From a virus (lineage: Duplodnaviria > Heunggongvirae > Uroviricota > Caudoviricetes), in IMG/VR virus record IMGVR_UViG_3300029006_000021, positions 1 to 6,679 of that record: a stretch of 6,679 nt of DNA; one strand, given 5' to 3'. Shown piece after piece: positions 1-5,380 of this stretch (its first letter is position 1; each line of letters begins with the position of its first letter). The notes beneath the pieces are model-generated. The model was not told the DNA's origin. It did not search any database and saw only the letters and a list, made by a program, of their open reading frames with translations. A program made the position numbers and the translations under genes.

Positions 1-31
1 GGGCGATTAACATCGCCTTTTGCTGCTTCAT
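1..31 (-). CDS. hokD: Hok/Gef-family small membrane toxin, N-terminal 10 codons only; gene continues beyond the left edge of the window
   Basis: Minus-strand ATG at 29-31 preceded by SD-like AAGGAGA about 9 nt upstream; visible translation MKQQKAMLIA matches the N-terminus of HokD/RelF as I remember it (HokC/Gef would read MKQHKAMIVA). Only 10 residues are in the window, so the call is tentative. Confidence 0.45.
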   Translation of the reverse strand, partial: MKQQKAMLIA

Positions 32-152
32 AGCCTGCTTCTCCTTGCCTTTCGGCACGTAAGAGGCTAACCTACATGTGCAAAGCATGAAATTGGCCTC
101 AGATTAATGTTAAGCGTCTTGCCGGACGCGTAATGTTAACTGGGGCTTTTCT

Positions 153-188
153 CTGTCTGCCTTACGGTGGCATGCCCGAGGCAGACAG
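153..188. other. 10-bp inverted repeat (CTGTCTGCCT / AGGCAGACAG) with 16-nt spacer containing the palindrome GGCATGCC, in the leader upstream of the hok-like gene
   Basis: Read directly. Not followed by a U-tract on either strand, so not a typical terminator; could be part of hok-type mRNA folding or a protein-binding site. Confidence 0.35.
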
Positions 189-276
189 CCTCAAGCACCC
201 GCAGCAATTCTACTTAACTCTCGCTTTACCGCAAACCGTTTTTACCCGATATGGGAATCCCCATATCGCAATGAAA

Positions 277-996: not shown

Positions 997-1299
997 TCAC
1001 TCTCCTTTGATGCGAATGCCAGCAACACGTAGTGCATGTTCTAAGTCAGCCAGATAAAGCCAGCTGCCATTTTCCTTAGGTATCATAATATGGCGCTCAT
1101 CAGCATTTATCGGGTGTCCATAGCGAAGTTCATAACCAACCGGTAACTGGACTTCCCTTGCCTCCAGTTCTGCAATGCGCTTGTCTTTGGCCTCCAGTTC
1201 ATCAAGGACCTTTTTTATGGCTGGCGAATGTGTCATATAACTCGCAGCCGGACCAGCAAGCATTATCCTGAGCTGTACTTTCGCTTTTTCTATTTTCAT
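997..1299 (-). CDS. Hypothetical phage protein, 100 aa, with predicted coiled-coil-like segment (LDELEAKDKRIAELEAREV)
   Basis: ORF track; ATG at 1297-1299 directly abuts the TAG stop (1300-1302) of the upstream gene; SD-like AAGGTAA upstream. Confidence 0.7.
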   Translation of the reverse strand: MKIEKAKVQLRIMLAGPAASYMTHSPAIKKVLDELEAKDKRIAELEAREVQLPVGYELRYGHPINADERHIMIPKENGSWLYLADLEHALRVAGIRIKGE

Positions 1300-1593
1300 C
1301 TACGCCATTACCTTGTTTCGCAACCAGACACAAACCGGGCCATCTTCAGTATCATGAATGGAGCCAATAAACCAGCCTTCTCCCTCTGGTCGTTCCGGTT
1401 CCCAGGCGGAAATACCGGAGTCATCTGCATCTGAATTAAAATCATCTTCATCCATACTGCAAATAGTCCACTGAAGATTATTTACCTTCATCCAGGCGTC
1501 AAATTCCTCGGTGGAAATATATTCACGACCTGCGCAAAACTTTTCATACTCCGGATGTGTCCAGCAGCCATATTCATCACGTTCTACCTGCAT
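1300..1593 (-). CDS. Strongly acidic, Trp-rich small protein, 97 aa (about 23 Asp/Glu vs 8 Arg/Lys); function unknown
   Basis: Track ORF 1300..1677 trimmed to the ATG at 1591-1593, which lies 4 nt after the stop of the upstream DUF4406-like gene; the longer start would overlap that gene by about 80 nt. Composition counted from the translation. The SD is weak, so the start is uncertain. Confidence 0.6.
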   Translation of the reverse strand: MQVERDEYGCWTHPEYEKFCAGREYISTEEFDAWMKVNNLQWTICSMDEDDFNSDADDSGISAWEPERPEGEGWFIGSIHDTEDGPVCVWLRNKVMA

Positions 1594-1597
1594 TTCT

Positions 1598-1903
1598 TTA
1601 ATTTCGCTCACTTGTTGCCTCCTGGAAAATAACCGCATGTCCCAGTTTCTCCGCCAGTGCCAGCTCAGCCCTTGCACCTGCCGACTGCTGCCAGCCTTTC
1701 AGCATGTAAACCGCATCCACGCAACGGAGCATTGCCATGCAAATATCCATGTAGTGTGGCTGAGTCAGCCCGTCCGGAAGTACTGCCGGATTTAAAACGG
1801 TATGCCCTTCCCGTTTCAGCACCTCTTCCGCTTTGTGAAATGCCTCGCGGTTAAAATTTTCATATCCCGTCATCGGACCGGCGATATAAACCCTCACCCT
1901 CAC
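1598..1903 (-). CDS. DUF4406-like protein (nucleoside 2-deoxyribosyltransferase-like fold), 101 aa
   Basis: ORF track; N-terminal VYIAGPM motif typical of this family; GTG start at 1901-1903 with consensus SD AGGAGG 8 nt upstream, overlapping the TGA stop of the upstream gene (GTGA). Confidence 0.8.
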   Translation of the reverse strand: MRVRVYIAGPMTGYENFNREAFHKAEEVLKREGHTVLNPAVLPDGLTQPHYMDICMAMLRCVDAVYMLKGWQQSAGARAELALAEKLGHAVIFQEATSERN

Positions 1904-2154
1904 TCCTGAACCCTCCTGTCGAAATAAACGTAGTTATTCACTGCGCCCAACTTCATCCCAAACTTTTCGGCAATTTCCCGTCGGGGTACACCACGCTGAT
2001 GCAGTTGCCGCGCCAGCTCAATATCACGCTGTGAACATTTGGCTGACTGGTGATAATCACCCCGTAACATCATGCTGAGACCCAGTTCCCGCGCTTTCGT
2101 CCTGACGGCTGACTCACTACGGCCAATCAGATAACCGATGCTTTCGACTTTCAT
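1900..2154 (-). CDS. Small DNA-binding protein with two helix-turn-helix-like segments, 84 aa (track ORF 1900..2304 trimmed to first ATG)
   Basis: Segments SIGYLIGRSESAVRTKARELGL and VPRREIAEKFGMKLGAVNNYV look HTH-like. First in-frame ATG at 2152-2154; the track start at 2304 is non-ATG and would overlap the upstream 244-aa gene by 90 nt. SD weak, so the start is uncertain. Confidence 0.55.
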   Translation of the reverse strand: MKVESIGYLIGRSESAVRTKARELGLSMMLRGDYHQSAKCSQRDIELARQLHQRGVPRREIAEKFGMKLGAVNNYVYFDRRVQE

Positions 2155-2213
2155 CGTTCCCGCACACTGCCGGAGTATCAGGATTTCAGCCCGGCACCAC
2201 TTCTTCCAGCCAC

Positions 2214-2948
2214 TCACCGCTGCTGCTCTCTGGTGGCGGTAATATCCCGGAGAATATCCCTGTGTTTGTTCAGTTCCCGTAGCGCAGCACAGACTCGCTC
2301 CCACTTCTGAACATCACTTTTCGCCCGGCGCAGCTCGCGGTTAGCCACATGCAGCGATGGTAGAATCAGGTCATCTGCTTTCGCTTCAGTGACCGATGGC
2401 TGTAACTTCACAATGTCTTCCTCGATTTCTGTTTTCATTTCTTCCTGTGTCGTTGTTTCCTGGACTGGTAACGCAACTCCTGCTGGCTGAGGAAAGGCTT
2501 TACCATCCGTTTCCGCTGCGGATGCAGCTTCCGGCTCTGCTGGTAAATTATCGCCCGGCATGCAGTAACGAAATTTACCGCCCTGATTCACGCGAATCAG
2601 ACGCCCTTTGCTGATTGCCATTGCCAGCGATGAATTCGCCCGGCGGGAGGTAATTCCGAACATCAGTGCCAGTTCATCCGCCGTTTGTGGGCCATGTTGT
2701 TCAATCGCCTCTGTCAGCATTTGCGCTGTCACTTTCGGTACCGGTGACACCGGTTCACTTTCACCAGCCTGAGTCAGCCACCACATCGACCCCTTGTTAT
2801 CCGCTTCACCGCGGCGCTTCAGTTTCCACAGTTCGTTGACCGCCTCTTCACGGCTGATTCCAAGGCGCGATGCCACTACCTGTGAAGAGGCTTTTTTCAG
2901 TGCTTTCAGTGCGTCAAATACGGTTTCCATTAAAACGTCCTCCGACAA
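2214..2948 (-). CDS. Prophage protein with two tandem winged-helix-like domains and an acidic/Pro-rich linker, 244 aa (resembles the DUF1627-type proteins found after replication genes in enterobacterial prophages)
   Basis: ORF track; ATG at 2946-2948 with SD GGAGGA about 7 nt upstream, 3 nt after the stop of the DnaC-like gene. Domain assignment is from reading the sequence, not from a search. Confidence 0.8.
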
Positions 2949-2951
2949 AAA

Positions 2952-3698
2952 TTACTTCACAACCCTCTGATTGCTGACATTTGGACGCCAGCTATCCCAG
3001 TTAAACGTCACCCATCGACCACCGTTCATGGTCATGCGGTCCATAATCCTCTCACCGAGAAGCGTACTCATTGCGGCATGATTCAGGTTTGTTAACATCC
3101 CGACACTGCACAGTGATGCTGTCCGGCGATCAATTATCTGGTGCAATACCACCTGCTCGTTTTTCGTCTCACGCTGAACGCCTATTTCATCCAGGACCAG
3201 CAAATCAACCCCGCAAAGCTCCTGTAAAAATTTTTCCCCGGACTGGCCGTTGTCGTAGCTGTCATGCAACACACTCATGACGTCAGACACGGTGACGATA
3301 ATCACGCTGCTCCCCTTCGCCATCAGCCGGTTGCCCATCGCCGCTGCAAGGTGATTTTTCCCGGTGCCGGTTTTACCGCTGAACACAAAATTCGTGCACC
3401 CGGTCATCAGTTCGTCAGCGATGGATTTTGCCTGGCTCAGCGCGTGTTTTTGCCCGTCGTTCTGCACCTGATAATTCGCAAACGAGCATTTGCTGTGCAG
3501 AGGCTGGATGCCCGAACGATTCAGGATTTTTTCCACCCGCAACTGGCGATTCTGGCGGTTAATCTCCTCGCTGCGTTTTCGTCCTTCAGCAAGCTGCCAT
3601 TCCCGCCACTCCTCCACCGTCCGGTACGGTGGAACCGCCCCCTGTGGTGCAAGTCTGCGAATACGTTCAAGAACCCCGGCTGCCGCAATGTTTTTCAT
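2952..3698 (-). CDS. ydaV: DnaC-family replicative helicase loader (AAA+ ATPase), 248 aa
   Basis: Walker A FSGKTGTGKNHLAAA and Walker B DLLVLDEIGVQ, with C-terminal ...GERIMDRM...WVTFNWDSWR closely resembling E. coli DnaC; SD GGGGGTGA upstream of ATG 3696-3698. Symbol assigned by synteny and size with the Rac prophage, not verified. Confidence 0.9.
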   Translation of the reverse strand: MKNIAAAGVLERIRRLAPQGAVPPYRTVEEWREWQLAEGRKRSEEINRQNRQLRVEKILNRSGIQPLHSKCSFANYQVQNDGQKHALSQAKSIADELMTGCTNFVFSGKTGTGKNHLAAAMGNRLMAKGSSVIIVTVSDVMSVLHDSYDNGQSGEKFLQELCGVDLLVLDEIGVQRETKNEQVVLHQIIDRRTASLCSVGMLTNLNHAAMSTLLGERIMDRMTMNGGRWVTFNWDSWRPNVSNQRVVK

Positions 3699-3704
3699 GC
3701 CACG

Positions 3705-4667
3705 TCACCCCCTGAATCCAGGCGGTATTTCAGTGTCCGGTTCAGAAATGTGATTCACGCAACGCTGCGCGGGCGAACGCCCCAGGCGGATAACCAGTTC
3801 ATCCCATTTTTCCCGGAGTTTTGCCGGACTCATGATGTTTTTTACCCAGAACGAATCCCGCTGGACACGCCCAAACATTTCACAAATTTGTCTGTGAGTT
3901 CTGCCATCCAGCATCCGCATTGTGCGCACGTCATTGGCCCATGCTGTCCAGTTGGGTTCTTTCGGTCTCGTGATCTCGCCATCATCGCTGGCCGCCTGCT
4001 CGTAAAGACTCACGATTCGTCCCCAGATCCACTGTGCGCACACCAAATCTTCCTGACTTCCCCACTGGCGTTTTTTCGCACTGAACACAACCGCGTCAGG
4101 GTGTCGGGTTAAAAAATCCTGTTCAGCCGTCTGCGGGTCCGGTTGCGAAGCGTCCGGACAAGAAGATCTTTTCTCTGACGGATCAGGTTTTAATACTGAC
4201 GGATCGGGGTCAATCATCGCCCCCCTAATCGGCAGTTTTTTATCAACCGTTGATCCATCAAAATTTGACGGGTCAACCGTTGAGGGGTCAATATTTGACG
4301 GGTCAACTGTTAACGGGTCATTTTTTGCCGGGCTAATTTTTCTTTTCGGTTTATATGACTCACGCGCCGCCGCCGCAGCTGCTTCGAGTTTTTCCACATT
4401 AAGCCGATAGATATTGCTTACATTACGCCCACCGACCTTACGCTCTTCCTTCGTCAGCCAGCCCTCTTTCGCCAGTTCTGCAATAGCCGATTTCACGGTG
4501 GATTCACTTCTTGCACCGATCTGACGCCGGATAGTTTCAATGGCAGGCCATGACACGCCCTCGTCATTGCTGTAGTCTGCTAGACGGGCCATCACTGCCA
4601 CCCGGGATAAGATCATGCCGGTGAAGGCGCATCCTTCCCAGACAAGACCATGAAGCTTGCTGCTCAT
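3705..4667 (-). CDS. ydaU: Phage replication initiator (lambda O-like role): N-terminal winged-helix domain, repeat-bearing linker (DPSNIDPSTVDPSNFDGSTVD), C-terminal domain; about 320 aa
   Basis: ORF track 3705..4682; I prefer the ATG at 4665-4667 (MSSKLHGL...) with a GGGGG SD-like run upstream, over the GTG at 4682. Sits immediately upstream of the DnaC-like gene and contains the iteron array. Symbol by synteny with Rac, not verified. Confidence 0.85.
   Translation of the reverse strand: MSSKLHGLVWEGCAFTGMILSRVAVMARLADYSNDEGVSWPAIETIRRQIGARSESTVKSAIAELAKEGWLTKEERKVGGRNVSNIYRLNVEKLEAAAAAARESYKPKRKISPAKNDPLTVDPSNIDPSTVDPSNFDGSTVDKKLPIRGAMIDPDPSVLKPDPSEKRSSCPDASQPDPQTAEQDFLTRHPDAVVFSAKKRQWGSQEDLVCAQWIWGRIVSLYEQAASDDGEITRPKEPNWTAWANDVRTMRMLDGRTHRQICEMFGRVQRDSFWVKNIMSPAKLREKWDELVIRLGRSPAQRCVNHISEPDTEIPPGFRG
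4249..4323. repeat. Iteron array: four to five direct repeats of a 15-bp unit (core GGGTCAA, approximate consensus TTGACGGGTCAAC) inside the initiator coding sequence; putative phage replication origin
   Basis: GGTCAA cores at 4271, 4286, 4301 and 4316 (GGTCAT), exactly 15 bp apart, with a degenerate copy at 4249-4263; read directly from the sequence. Lambda ori iterons likewise lie within the O gene linker. Confidence 0.75.
4324..4365. other. AT-rich tract flanking the iterons (candidate DNA-unwinding element of the origin)
   Basis: Sequence TTTTTTGCCGGGCTAATTTTTCTTTTCGGTTTATATGACTC directly adjacent to the iterons; by analogy with lambda ori. Confidence 0.45.
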
Positions 4668-4689
4668 AAAACCCCCGAACACCGTGCTT

Positions 4690-5115
4690 TTAGTGCATCA
4701 CCACAGCATTCCCTGCCGGGCCGCCGCGATTCATCTGGTCATACAAAACAACCGCTGACGCAACAAAATCGTCGACATCCTTCACCAGCCGATCCCGCCG
4801 TTCGACGATCTCACGGTAATACTCAGAACTGTGGCTGCGCATACGGGCCACCAGCAAAGGCGGCATCGCCTTTTCGATCGCTGGTAACAGAGCCTGAATT
4901 TTTTCAACAGCATCAGGGGTGTCTTTATCCAACCAACGGAAAATTTTCTGGGTATTACGGGCCAGGGCTTCCGGATGACTGTCGTCATACAGTTCCGGGA
5001 ACGTCATCCCCAGTTCGAAATAAGTCCGGGCTATTTCAGCTGCAGGAACTTTCTCGCCATCAGGATATGCCCAGGCATTGATCGCCATGCGGATGTGTTC
5101 ATGCTTGATTTTCAT
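4690..5115 (-). CDS. ydaT: YdaT-like protein, 141 aa (lambda CII-like regulator; historically annotated as a toxin)
   Basis: ORF track; ATG 5113-5115 with SD GGAG about 9 nt upstream; 17-nt overlap with the upstream ydaS-like gene; position between Cro-like and O-like genes as in Rac. Symbol by synteny and size, not verified. Confidence 0.85.
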   Translation of the reverse strand: MKIKHEHIRMAINAWAYPDGEKVPAAEIARTYFELGMTFPELYDDSHPEALARNTQKIFRWLDKDTPDAVEKIQALLPAIEKAMPPLLVARMRSHSSEYYREIVERRDRLVKDVDDFVASAVVLYDQMNRGGPAGNAVVMH

Positions 5116-5380
5116 GAATCAAGCTCCTAGAAAGTGGTTGTGTTAACGTTTTGGTATCTTCCAGCTCAGGCCAAATATTCATCCAATCAAAAGGCCTTAG
5201 TTGCTGACGTGTAACTTCACCATTACTGGCTCGCTCAATAAGGACACATAACGATGCCCCTAACACTTGACCTTTACTCAATGCCTTTCTTAGATAACCG
5301 ATGCTGGTACCACACTCGCATGCAAACATACGCTGTTCATCTGACGAAAGAGAATTGAGAAATATTCTTAATTCTTCCAT
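5099..5380 (-). CDS. ydaS: YdaS-like Cro-type HTH regulator, 93 aa
   Basis: ORF track; ATG 5378-5380 with SD AAGGAG 5 nt upstream; HTH-like segment CGTSIGYLRKALSKGQ; first gene of the operon divergent from the repressor gene. Symbol by synteny, not verified. Confidence 0.85.
   Translation of the reverse strand: MEELRIFLNSLSSDEQRMFACECGTSIGYLRKALSKGQVLGASLCVLIERASNGEVTRQQLRPFDWMNIWPELEDTKTLTQPLSRSLIHENQA

What the first reader, a model, noticed from the sequence alone, without database searches (positions are those of the whole stretch)
1598..2948. Accessory cassette: tandem winged-helix protein, double-HTH protein and DUF4406-like protein, tightly coupled
Three consecutive genes with overlapping or near-abutting boundaries (GTGA overlap at 1900-1903) combine two DNA-binding proteins with a DUF4406 protein, a family with the fold of nucleoside 2-deoxyribosyltransferases. 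The combination could be a nucleotide- or DNA-modifying module (anti-restriction or nucleotide-pool manipulation), but DUF4406 proteins lack a demonstrated activity, so the function is open.
Basis: partly seen in the sequence, partly recalled or inferred. Interest (0 to 1): 0.5.

Follow-up and report, generated by a model that had tools for sequence, protein, structure and literature searches.

The report
Three independent prophage accessory genes
The three tightly packed genes are real, but they are separately shuffled accessory genes in the early operon of a common E. coli Rac-like prophage, not a conserved three-gene machine; one encodes a small uncharacterised enzyme-like protein that keeps the catalytic residues of nucleoside deoxyribosyltransferases.

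Summary
On the minus strand, directly after the O-like and DnaC-like replication genes, lie three genes.
- A DUF1627 protein, 2214-2930.
- A 105-aa HTH protein, 1900-2217.
- A 101-aa DUF4406 protein, 1598-1903.

GTGA stop/start overlaps join them at both junctions.

The DUF4406 model (pLDDT 89) has the NDT/DNPH1/MilB fold. The catalytic Glu (E80), Tyr6 and Ser74 are conserved across 60 diverse homologues.

The "cassette" reading fails its own refutation test.
- In 38 DUF4406 loci from other species, none has a DUF1627 or HTH homologue within 4 kb, and no other neighbour recurs.
- E. coli prophages show DUF1627 alone, DUF1627-HTH without DUF4406, and DUF1627-DUF977-DUF4406.
- In complete E. coli genomes, DUF1627 occurs at 4905 places against 671 for DUF4406.
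- HTH homologues in Salmonella, Pantoea and Citrobacter sit in the early-left operon.
- Tight spacing is general along this operon.

This exact trio is annotated at 98% identity in E. coli RefSeq genomes.

Best reading: three independent early-operon accessory genes. DUF4406 is probably a minimal N-glycosidase or transferase acting on nucleotides. Interest is low. The main lead is that K-12 ydaW, a DUF1627 fragment, was a screen hit that blocked the retron toxin RcaT.

The parts
2214..2930 (-). DUF1627 (YdaW-family) gene, 238 aa from ATG 2930 (the ORF extends to TTG 2948). Layout: N-terminal HTH/winged-helix-like region, a confident second winged helix, a disordered acidic/Pro-rich linker, and a long C-terminal helix.
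   Evidence: Pfam PF07789 E=8e-83; phrog_630 E=3e-115. AF2 model: residues 65-125 pLDDT 81-87 with H-H-H-beta-beta topology, 131-189 pLDDT <50, helix 184-237. Foldseek gives only generic wH hits, all E>1e-3. It lies directly after the replication genes in all six annotated loci inspected.
2939..2943 (-). Shine-Dalgarno GGAGG, 8 nt upstream of the ATG at 2930
   Evidence: Read from the sequence
1900..2217 (-). 105-aa small DNA-binding protein. The GTG start overlaps the DUF1627 stop (GTGA at 2214-2217). The C-terminal HTH is resolvase/IS-transposase/GcrA-like. The conserved N-terminal half is HTH-like by pattern only.
   Evidence: phrog_323 E=7e-26. HTH_7 and Sigma70_r4_2 hits fall below the gathering score. 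PDB profile hit 2lvs E=2.4e-4 over residues 48-90. hhalign to the GcrA HTH gives E=0.0013 at residues 65-93. N-terminal conservation (W7, RAEI, QCAG, GR..AVR) is.
1598..1903 (-). DUF4406 gene, 101 aa: a minimal (four-strand, three-helix) member of the nucleoside 2-deoxyribosyltransferase/DNPH1 fold superfamily. The GTG start overlaps the HTH gene's stop (GTGA at 1900-1903).
1912..1917 (-). Shine-Dalgarno AGGAGG, 8 nt upstream of the DUF4406 GTG
   Evidence: Read from the sequence
2952..4682 (-). Context: replication module upstream in the same operon. O-like initiator 3705-4682, with 15-nt iteron-like repeats at 4243-4341. DnaC-like helicase loader 2952-3698.
   Evidence: phrog_391 E=1.5e-115, NF009043 E=7e-153, phrog_50 E=7.5e-83; tandem repeats
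1300..1593 (-). Context: the next accessory gene downstream (phrog_1372). In about a third of close relatives it directly follows the HTH gene, with DUF4406 absent.
   Evidence: The start at ATG 1593 is inferred from where homologue matches begin.

Best explanation
The segment is the variable accessory stretch that follows the replication genes in the early-right operon of a Rac-like lambdoid E. coli prophage. The three genes are transcribed and translationally coupled with the rest of the operon, but each is an independent, separately exchangeable gene rather than a subunit of one system. (1) DUF1627 (YdaW family) is tied by position to the replication module. It is probably an oligomeric DNA-binding protein, with winged-helix domains and a C-terminal long helix (inferred). 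(2) The 105-aa protein is a small HTH DNA-binding protein that also occurs in the early-left operons of other enterobacterial prophages. (3) DUF4406 is a stand-alone, minimal enzyme of the NDT/DNPH1/MilB superfamily. With Tyr6, Ser74 and the Glu80 nucleophile conserved, the most likely chemistry is cleavage of an N-glycosidic bond through a covalent ribosyl- or deoxyribosyl-Glu intermediate. The substrate would be a free (deoxy)nucleotide or nucleoside in the pool. Ser at the position of DNPH1 Ser98, rather than the Asp of the T. brucei NDT (2a0k) that aligns there, favours a 5'-phosphorylated substrate. The enzyme would act during early lytic growth. Shown: gene structure, family and fold, residue conservation, lack of conserved partnership. 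Inferred: catalysis, substrate, timing, biological role.
For: Operon context. Independence of the genes: 0/38 cross-species DUF4406 loci have a DUF1627 or HTH homologue within 4 kb, and no neighbour family recurs in more than 7/38 loci. E. coli arrangements include DUF1627-DUF977-HTH-DUF4406, DUF1627-HTH-hypothetical, and DUF1627-DUF977-DUF4406; Rac-SA53 has ydaW-lygF-rac19. About 20 of 64 close IMG/VR relatives have DUF1627-HTH-orf125 with DUF4406 absent. Counts in 5426 E. coli genomes: DUF1627 4905 places, HTH 1167, DUF4406 671, whole trio in 512 genomes. HTH homologues lie between exoVIII/RecT and xis/int in Salmonella, Pantoea and Citrobacter. DUF4406 enzyme reading: fold. The profile hits T. 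brucei NDT at E=1.1e-4 with E80 on the AFEVG Glu. hhalign to human DNPH1, whose sequence was verified against the PDB, pairs Y6/Y24, S74/S98 and E80/E104. S74 is 60/60, E80 59/60, Y6 53/60 plus 6 Phe. The family is very large and phage-rich: 17,428 representative clusters and 593 phage records.
Against: No biochemical data exist for any DUF4406 protein in the literature searched. The residue at the usual general-acid Asp position is not conserved: D53 is 22/60, and position 55 is mostly Cys. The protein ends after beta4, so it lacks the C-terminal segment that in NDT and DNPH1 supplies active-site residues from the neighbouring subunit (from my knowledge of those structures; target lengths are 130-160 against 101). 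The hhalign match to DNPH1 is weak on its own (E=0.027). Within E. coli, about 82% of DUF4406-bearing genomes do carry the contiguous trio. A lineage-specific functional link therefore cannot be excluded, although the E. coli set is very clonal.
Confidence: 0.6

Rival explanations
1. One reading: the three genes form one coupled module. The two DNA-binding proteins target or regulate the DUF4406 enzyme to modify DNA or nucleotides, for anti-restriction or pool manipulation.
For: Both junctions have 4-nt GTGA overlaps. The contiguous trio is found in 512 E. coli genomes. Retron type II effectors fuse an NDT-like domain to a DNA-binding domain, so that combination has a precedent (PMC7736814).
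Against: 0/38 co-occurrence outside E. coli. Several alternative arrangements exist, and single-gene presence or absence of DUF4406 is seen. DUF1627 is about 7 times more frequent than DUF4406. HTH homologues sit in another operon in other genera. Tight spacing is general in this operon. Ten long DUF4406 proteins show no fused DNA-binding Pfam domain.
Confidence: 0.07
2. HTH plus DUF4406 is a two-gene toxin-antitoxin-like or self-regulated pair. The NDT-like protein would be toxic by depleting nucleotides, and the upstream HTH protein would neutralise or repress it.
For: The HTH gene lies immediately upstream of DUF4406 in the window and in L001, L002 and L004. NDT-like retron effectors are toxins.
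Against: DUF4406 occurs without the HTH gene in L005, in Rac-SA53 and in 38/38 loci from other species. The HTH gene occurs without DUF4406. There are no PADLOC hits. No own promoter was found.
Confidence: 0.05
3. DUF4406 is a phage counter-defence protein: either a sponge or an N-glycosidase for nucleotide- or NAD-derived immune signals, or an NADase-like enzyme. DUF1627 would be a blocker of abortive-infection toxins. Together they would make this stretch an anti-defence island of independent genes.
Against: No direct test exists. The ydaW hit comes from a preprint screen, and it is unclear whether it was among the 11 validated blockers. The Ren similarity is not significant by hhalign (E=0.14). 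The best structural matches of DUF4406 are NDT, MilB and DUF1937, not TIR.
Confidence: 0.15
4. DUF4406 is a catalytically inert structural or regulatory remnant of the NDT fold.
For: It lacks the C-terminal third of NDT and DNPH1, and the general-acid Asp is not conserved.
Against: Near-invariance of Glu80, Ser74, Gly9 and Tyr6 across homologues only 41-63% identical to the window protein, including representatives of 50%-identity clusters, indicates selection on the active-site positions.
Confidence: 0.1

Closest known systems
Nucleoside 2-deoxyribosyltransferases (NDT/PDT; e.g. T. brucei 2a0k, L. leichmannii 1f8x)
   Different: DUF4406 is about 55 residues shorter and lacks the C-terminal elements. 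It has Ser instead of the Asp of the aligned T. brucei NDT motif 'EPDCGT', six residues before the Glu. There is no conserved base-contacting Asp. No activity has been shown.
DNPH1/Rcl (2'-deoxynucleoside 5'-phosphate N-hydrolase) and the CMP N-glycosidases MilB/BcmB
   Same: Same fold. The S-x-G-x-x-x-E motif has identical spacing: S74/E80 against S98/E104 in human DNPH1. Tyr in strand 1 is shared.
   Different: The sequence relationship is only detectable at profile level (E=0.027). The second phosphate-binding Ser, supplied by the partner subunit, and the Asp80 equivalent are not identifiable. The substrate is unknown.
DUF1937 (PF09152; PDB 1t1j)
   Different: It is also uncharacterised, so the match carries no functional information.
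Rac prophage ydaU-ydaV-ydaW region (E. coli K-12; phage Rac-SA53)
   Same: Same operon layout: cro-like, YdaT-like, initiator, helicase loader, DUF1627 (ydaW), accessory genes, ead, hok/sok.
   Different: Rac-SA53 has lygF (DUF977) between ydaW and the DUF4406 gene (rac19), in place of the HTH gene. K-12 retains only a ydaW fragment.
Lambda ren / the nin-type accessory region
   Same: DUF1627 occupies the position right after the helicase loader. A run of small, translationally coupled, mosaic genes follows it.
   Different: Sequence similarity to Ren is not significant. DUF1627 is 2.5 times larger, with an extra domain, a linker and a coiled-coil-like helix.

Membership tests
DUF4406 (Pfam PF14359) | Match to the family HMM above the gathering score over the full domain | tested here: met
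   125.8 bits against a cutoff of 22; residues 4-93 match profile positions 2-91 of 91
NDT/DNPH1/MilB superfamily (N-ribosyltransferase-like fold) | Flavodoxin/Rossmann-like alpha/beta fold shared with solved NDT, DNPH1 and MilB structures | tested here: met
NDT/DNPH1/MilB superfamily | Catalytic Glu nucleophile at the start of the helix after strand 3 | tested here: met
   E80 aligns to the Glu of AFEVG in 2a0k and to E104 of DNPH1; 59/60 conserved
NDT/DNPH1/MilB superfamily | Tyr in the strand-1 motif that positions the Glu | tested here: met
   Y6 in VYIAGP aligns to IYIAGP of 2a0k and LYFCGS of DNPH1; Y 53/60, F 6/60
NDT/DNPH1/MilB superfamily | Conserved Asp that contacts or protonates the leaving base | tested here: inconclusive
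   D53 is only 22/60. The position that hhalign pairs with DNPH1 D80 is C55 (Cys 39/60, Asp 9/60). No structural superposition was available.
NDT/DNPH1/MilB superfamily | C-terminal segment contributing active-site residues across the dimer interface | tested here: not met
   The protein ends 8 residues after strand 4. Aligned targets are 130-160 residues.
NDT/DNPH1/MilB superfamily | N-glycosidic bond cleavage or transfer activity | not testable with these tools
   Needs an enzyme assay. No report for DUF4406 was found.
DUF1627 (Pfam PF07789) / YdaW family | Match to the family HMM above the gathering score | tested here: met
   276.3 bits against a cutoff of 28.1; profile positions 1-155 of 155. 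The K-12 ydaW fragment matches nt 242-428 of the gene.
Tandem winged-helix proteins | Two consecutive H-T-H plus beta-hairpin wing domains | tested here: inconclusive
   The second domain is confident (pLDDT 81-87, H69-79/H84-91/H95-107/E112-116/E119-123). The first is three helices at pLDDT 53-71 with no modelled wing. Pfam and Foldseek hits are generic and below threshold.
Double-HTH small regulators | Two recognisable HTH motifs | tested here: inconclusive
   The C-terminal HTH is supported. The N-terminal half has no Pfam hit and no significant PDB hit, and the two halves are not significantly alike.
Conserved multi-gene functional module (cassette) | The genes co-occur and stay adjacent across divergent genomes | tested here: not met
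   0/38 cross-species loci; alternative arrangements; unequal abundances; the HTH gene sits elsewhere in other genera
Known anti-phage defence systems (PADLOC) | Match to a defence-system protein model | tested here: not met
   No hit for DUF4406 or the HTH protein. There is only a marginal SWIM_XIII hit (E=5.5e-4) for DUF1627.
Lambda Ren | Sequence homology to Ren | tested here: inconclusive
   phrog_142 E=7e-5 with no stretch passing on its own. hhalign gives E=0.14 to a Ren sequence recalled from memory and not verified.

The most novel reading that the evidence does not exclude
The stretch after the replication genes is an anti-defence island made of independent genes. DUF4406 would be a widespread, minimal phage N-glycosidase that destroys or sequesters a nucleotide- or NAD-derived molecule used by host immunity, or reshapes the dNMP pool. 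The DUF1627/YdaW family would block abortive-infection toxins such as the NDT-like retron effector RcaT, through its Ren-like winged helix.
Probability: 0.12. Interest if true: 0.65.

Novelty: already known. Interest (0 to 1): 0.2.

Why it matters
As a "cassette" it does not matter. The arrangement is one of many mosaic combinations in Rac-like prophages, and it is already annotated at 98% identity in E. coli genomes.

What remains of value is general rather than specific to this window. DUF4406 is a very large, phage-rich family (over 17,000 representative clusters, about 600 phage genomes). It retains the catalytic residues of nucleoside deoxyribosyltransferases and DNPH1, yet has no known activity. 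DUF1627/YdaW is present in nearly half of complete E. coli genomes and has no known role. Either would be a reasonable target for a biochemical or counter-defence screen.

Tried and rejected
1. Domain fusions as a functional clue. Ten long DUF4406-containing representatives (194-358 aa) had no second Pfam domain.

2. Apparent dCMP-deaminase and MazG "fusions" in actinophage records. These are single-domain proteins of about 125 aa with inconsistent names, not fusions.

3. Direct sequence search of DUF4406 against the PDB. Nothing useful came from the single sequence or the shallow profile. Only the 60-sequence profile reached an NDT.

4. Ren homology of DUF1627. Not significant.

5. Internal repeat in the HTH protein, and an N-terminal HTH. 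No support. The weak HAD-phosphatase hits explain the occasional PGAP name "HAD family hydrolase" for this protein.

6. RNA elements, promoters or terminators inside the segment. None found on the coding strand.

7. Defence-system membership. None.

8. Compositional island. GC is 0.50-0.56, the same as the replication genes.

9. Literature on DUF4406, PF14359 and DUF1627. Only passing annotations exist.

10. The Foldseek search with the DUF1627 model gives only generic winged-helix hits, and the model is of low confidence overall.

Full report
**What is there**

The window is the immunity and early-right region of a Rac-like lambdoid E. coli prophage, with the early operon on the minus strand. 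In transcription order it holds:
- a cro-like gene, 5099-5380
- a YdaT-family gene, 4690-5115
- an O-like initiator, 3705-4682
- a DnaC-like helicase loader, 2952-3698
- the three genes of the finding
- a run of small ead/Ea22-type genes
- a hok/sok locus cut by the left end of the window

These assignments rest.

The three genes are:
- DUF1627. The ORF is 2214-2948. The most likely start is the ATG at 2930, behind GGAGG at 2939-2943, and database proteins are 238 aa.
- A 105-aa DNA-binding protein, 1900-2217. Its GTG start overlaps the DUF1627 stop as GTGA at 2214-2217.
- DUF4406, 1598-1903. Its GTG start overlaps the preceding stop as GTGA at 1900-1903, with AGGAGG 8 nt upstream.

No promoter-like site, and no terminator-like site on the coding strand, lies inside 1200-3200. 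No Rfam family matches there. However, tight spacing is a property of the whole operon, not a mark of these three genes.

**The DUF4406 protein**

Family and fold:
- Pfam PF14359 scores 125.8 bits. PHROG 355 is named "nucleoside 2-deoxyribosyltransferase".
- An AlphaFold2 model from 25 homologues has mean pLDDT 89, with a four-strand, three-helix alpha/beta core.
- Foldseek against the PDB returns NDTs, DNPH1/Rcl, MilB and BcmB (plus one entry, 7m5h, described only as a conserved protein), at probability 1.0 and TMq about 0.7.

Active-site residues:
- A profile of 60 diverse homologues hits T. brucei NDT at E=1.1e-4. Glu80 aligns to the Glu of the AFEVG motif, and Ser74 to the Asp six residues before it.
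- hhalign against human DNPH1, whose sequence I first verified against PDB entries, pairs Tyr6/Tyr24, Ser74/Ser98 and Glu80/Glu104. On its own that match is weak, at E=0.027.
- Across the 60 sequences, Ser74 is invariant, Glu80 is 59/60, Tyr6 is 53/60 with 6 Phe, and Gly9 is invariant. Asp53 is only 22/60, and the position paired with the DNPH1 general-acid Asp is mostly Cys.

The protein also ends just after strand 4, so it lacks the C-terminal third of NDT and DNPH1.

The Glu nucleophile is present and under selection, and the rest of the canonical site is only partly present.

The family is very large: 17,428 representative clusters at E<=1e-3. It occurs in 593 phage records across Actinobacteria, Vibrio, Pseudomonas and enterobacterial phages. 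I found no experimental characterisation.

**The two DNA-binding proteins**

DUF1627:
- It scores 276 bits to PF07789.
- Its model is poor overall (pLDDT 61). Residues 65-125 nevertheless form a confident winged helix (pLDDT 81-87).
- That domain is preceded by a low-confidence three-helix region. It is followed by a disordered acidic/Pro-rich linker and a 54-residue C-terminal helix.
- Structural matches are generic winged-helix proteins, all at E>1e-3.

The 105-aa protein:
- Its C-terminal HTH is supported by sub-threshold HTH_7 and Sigma70_r4_2 hits, by PDB 2lvs, and by the GcrA HTH.
- Its conserved N-terminal half (W7, RAEI, QCAG, GR..AVR..ARELG) looks HTH-like but has no tool support.

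"Tandem winged-helix" and "double-HTH" are therefore each only half verified.

**Is it a cassette?**

The test is met.

- Other species. 38 DUF4406 loci came from a one-genome-per-species collection, almost all from species other than E. coli. One is a short contig labelled Collinsella that is 90% identical to the window protein. tblastn found no DUF1627 or HTH homologue within 4 kb in any of them. Clustering of neighbouring ORFs found no family recurring in more than 7 loci.
- Alternative arrangements in E. coli:
  - DUF1627-DUF977-HTH-DUF4406
  - DUF1627-HTH-hypothetical, with no DUF4406
  - DUF1627-DUF977-DUF4406
  - ydaW-lygF-rac19 in the intact phage Rac-SA53
- Close viral-contig relatives. 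About 20 of 64 have DUF1627-HTH-orf125 with DUF4406 absent, as a single-gene presence/absence difference.
- Counts in 5426 complete E. coli genomes, at megablast sensitivity:

| Gene | Places or genomes |
|---|---|
| DUF1627 | 4905 places |
| HTH gene | 1167 places |
| DUF4406 | 671 places |
| Contiguous trio | 512 genomes, many of them clonal O157:H7 and other STEC |

- HTH gene in other genera. Homologues at 62-68% identity in Salmonella, Pantoea and Citrobacter sit in the early-left operon, between exoVIII/RecT and xis/int. Neither partner is nearby.

DUF1627, by contrast, directly follows the helicase loader in all six annotated loci inspected, whether the loader is DnaC-like or P-like. 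This is the position of ren in lambda (the lambda order is from my own knowledge).

**Mechanism**

The best-supported reading is three independent early genes.

For DUF4406 I commit to a Glu80-dependent cleavage or transfer of an N-glycosidic bond on a small (deoxy)nucleotide or nucleoside. A 5'-phosphorylated substrate is favoured by the DNPH1-like Ser. The probability that it is a real enzyme of this type is about 0.5.

The rivals are:
- a three-gene module
- an HTH-DUF4406 toxin-antitoxin-like pair
- a counter-defence sponge or NAD-directed enzyme
- an inert remnant

They are weighed in the structured fields.

One lead is worth recording. K-12 ydaW corresponds to the confident winged helix of DUF1627. 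It was listed among prophage genes that blocked the retron-Sen2 toxin RcaT in an overexpression screen (bioRxiv 10.1101/2020.06.22.160242). RcaT is itself an NDT-like domain fused to a DNA-binding domain (PMC7736814). This is a screen hit on a gene fragment, not a demonstrated function.

**Verdict**

- The family and fold assignments are correct.
- The functional-module interpretation is not supported.

The same trio is annotated at about 98% identity in E. coli RefSeq genomes. It is therefore an already catalogued, ordinary mosaic segment of a common prophage type, containing two large uncharacterised families. Interest is 0.2.

Noticed in passing
window 1-200 (minus strand): A hok/sok type I toxin-antitoxin locus. 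Rfam sok (RF01794) scores 117 bits at 26-200. The Hok ORF starts MKQQKAMLIA... near position 30 and runs off the left end of the window.
   Followed up: partly
window 4243-4341 (inside the O-like gene, 3705-4682): About five copies of a 15-nt unit (TTTGACGGGTCAATT; also scored as 30-nt units). These look like iterons and probably mark the prophage replication origin lying within the initiator gene, as in lambda. They encode the repetitive DPS/VDPS peptide stretch.
   Followed up: no
window 2214-2930; K-12 ydaW (match to nt 242-428 of the gene): K-12 ydaW is a fragment equal to the confident winged helix of DUF1627. A 2020 preprint lists it as a prophage-gene hit that blocks the NDT-like retron-Sen2 toxin RcaT. 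This is a possible counter-defence role for a family present in about 46% of complete E. coli genomes.
   Followed up: partly
L004 3187-3504 (NZ_CM195844.1): A 71%-identical homologue of the 105-aa HTH protein is named 'HAD family hydrolase' by PGAP. The N-terminal half gives weak chance-level hits to HAD phosphatases (GR..V..RA.ELGI), which probably explains the misnaming.
   Followed up: yes
L044 1480-1851 (Arthrobacter phage Leona gp53); L045 1474-1854 (Mycobacterium phage MiaZeal gp166): Single-domain DUF4406-like proteins of about 125 aa in actinophage records are variously named 'deoxycytidylate deaminase', 'MazG-like pyrophosphatase', 'hydrolase' or 'nucleoside deoxyribosyltransferase'. 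The annotation is inconsistent and not evidence of fusion. In MiaZeal the gene lies between a PAPS reductase and a true MazG-like gene.
   Followed up: partly
window 1300-1677 (minus strand): The longest ORF downstream overlaps DUF4406 by 80 nt. Homologue matches begin around residues 19-29, so the real gene probably starts at ATG 1593, 4 nt after the DUF4406 stop (phrog_1372, unknown function).
   Followed up: partly
DUF4406 residue 55 (window ~1739-1741): The position that aligns with the general-acid Asp of DNPH1 is Cys in 39/60 homologues and Asp in 9/60. Cys55 is invariant in the enterobacterial subgroup. It may be a lineage-specific replacement in the active site.
   Followed up: no
L001 6735-7481 (NZ_AP045179.1): In the closest long E. 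coli match, the DnaC-like loader gene is annotated as a pseudogene (internal stop), and the window as a whole is not covered at >=80% by any complete E. coli genome. The window's particular combination of modules is itself a mosaic.
   Followed up: no
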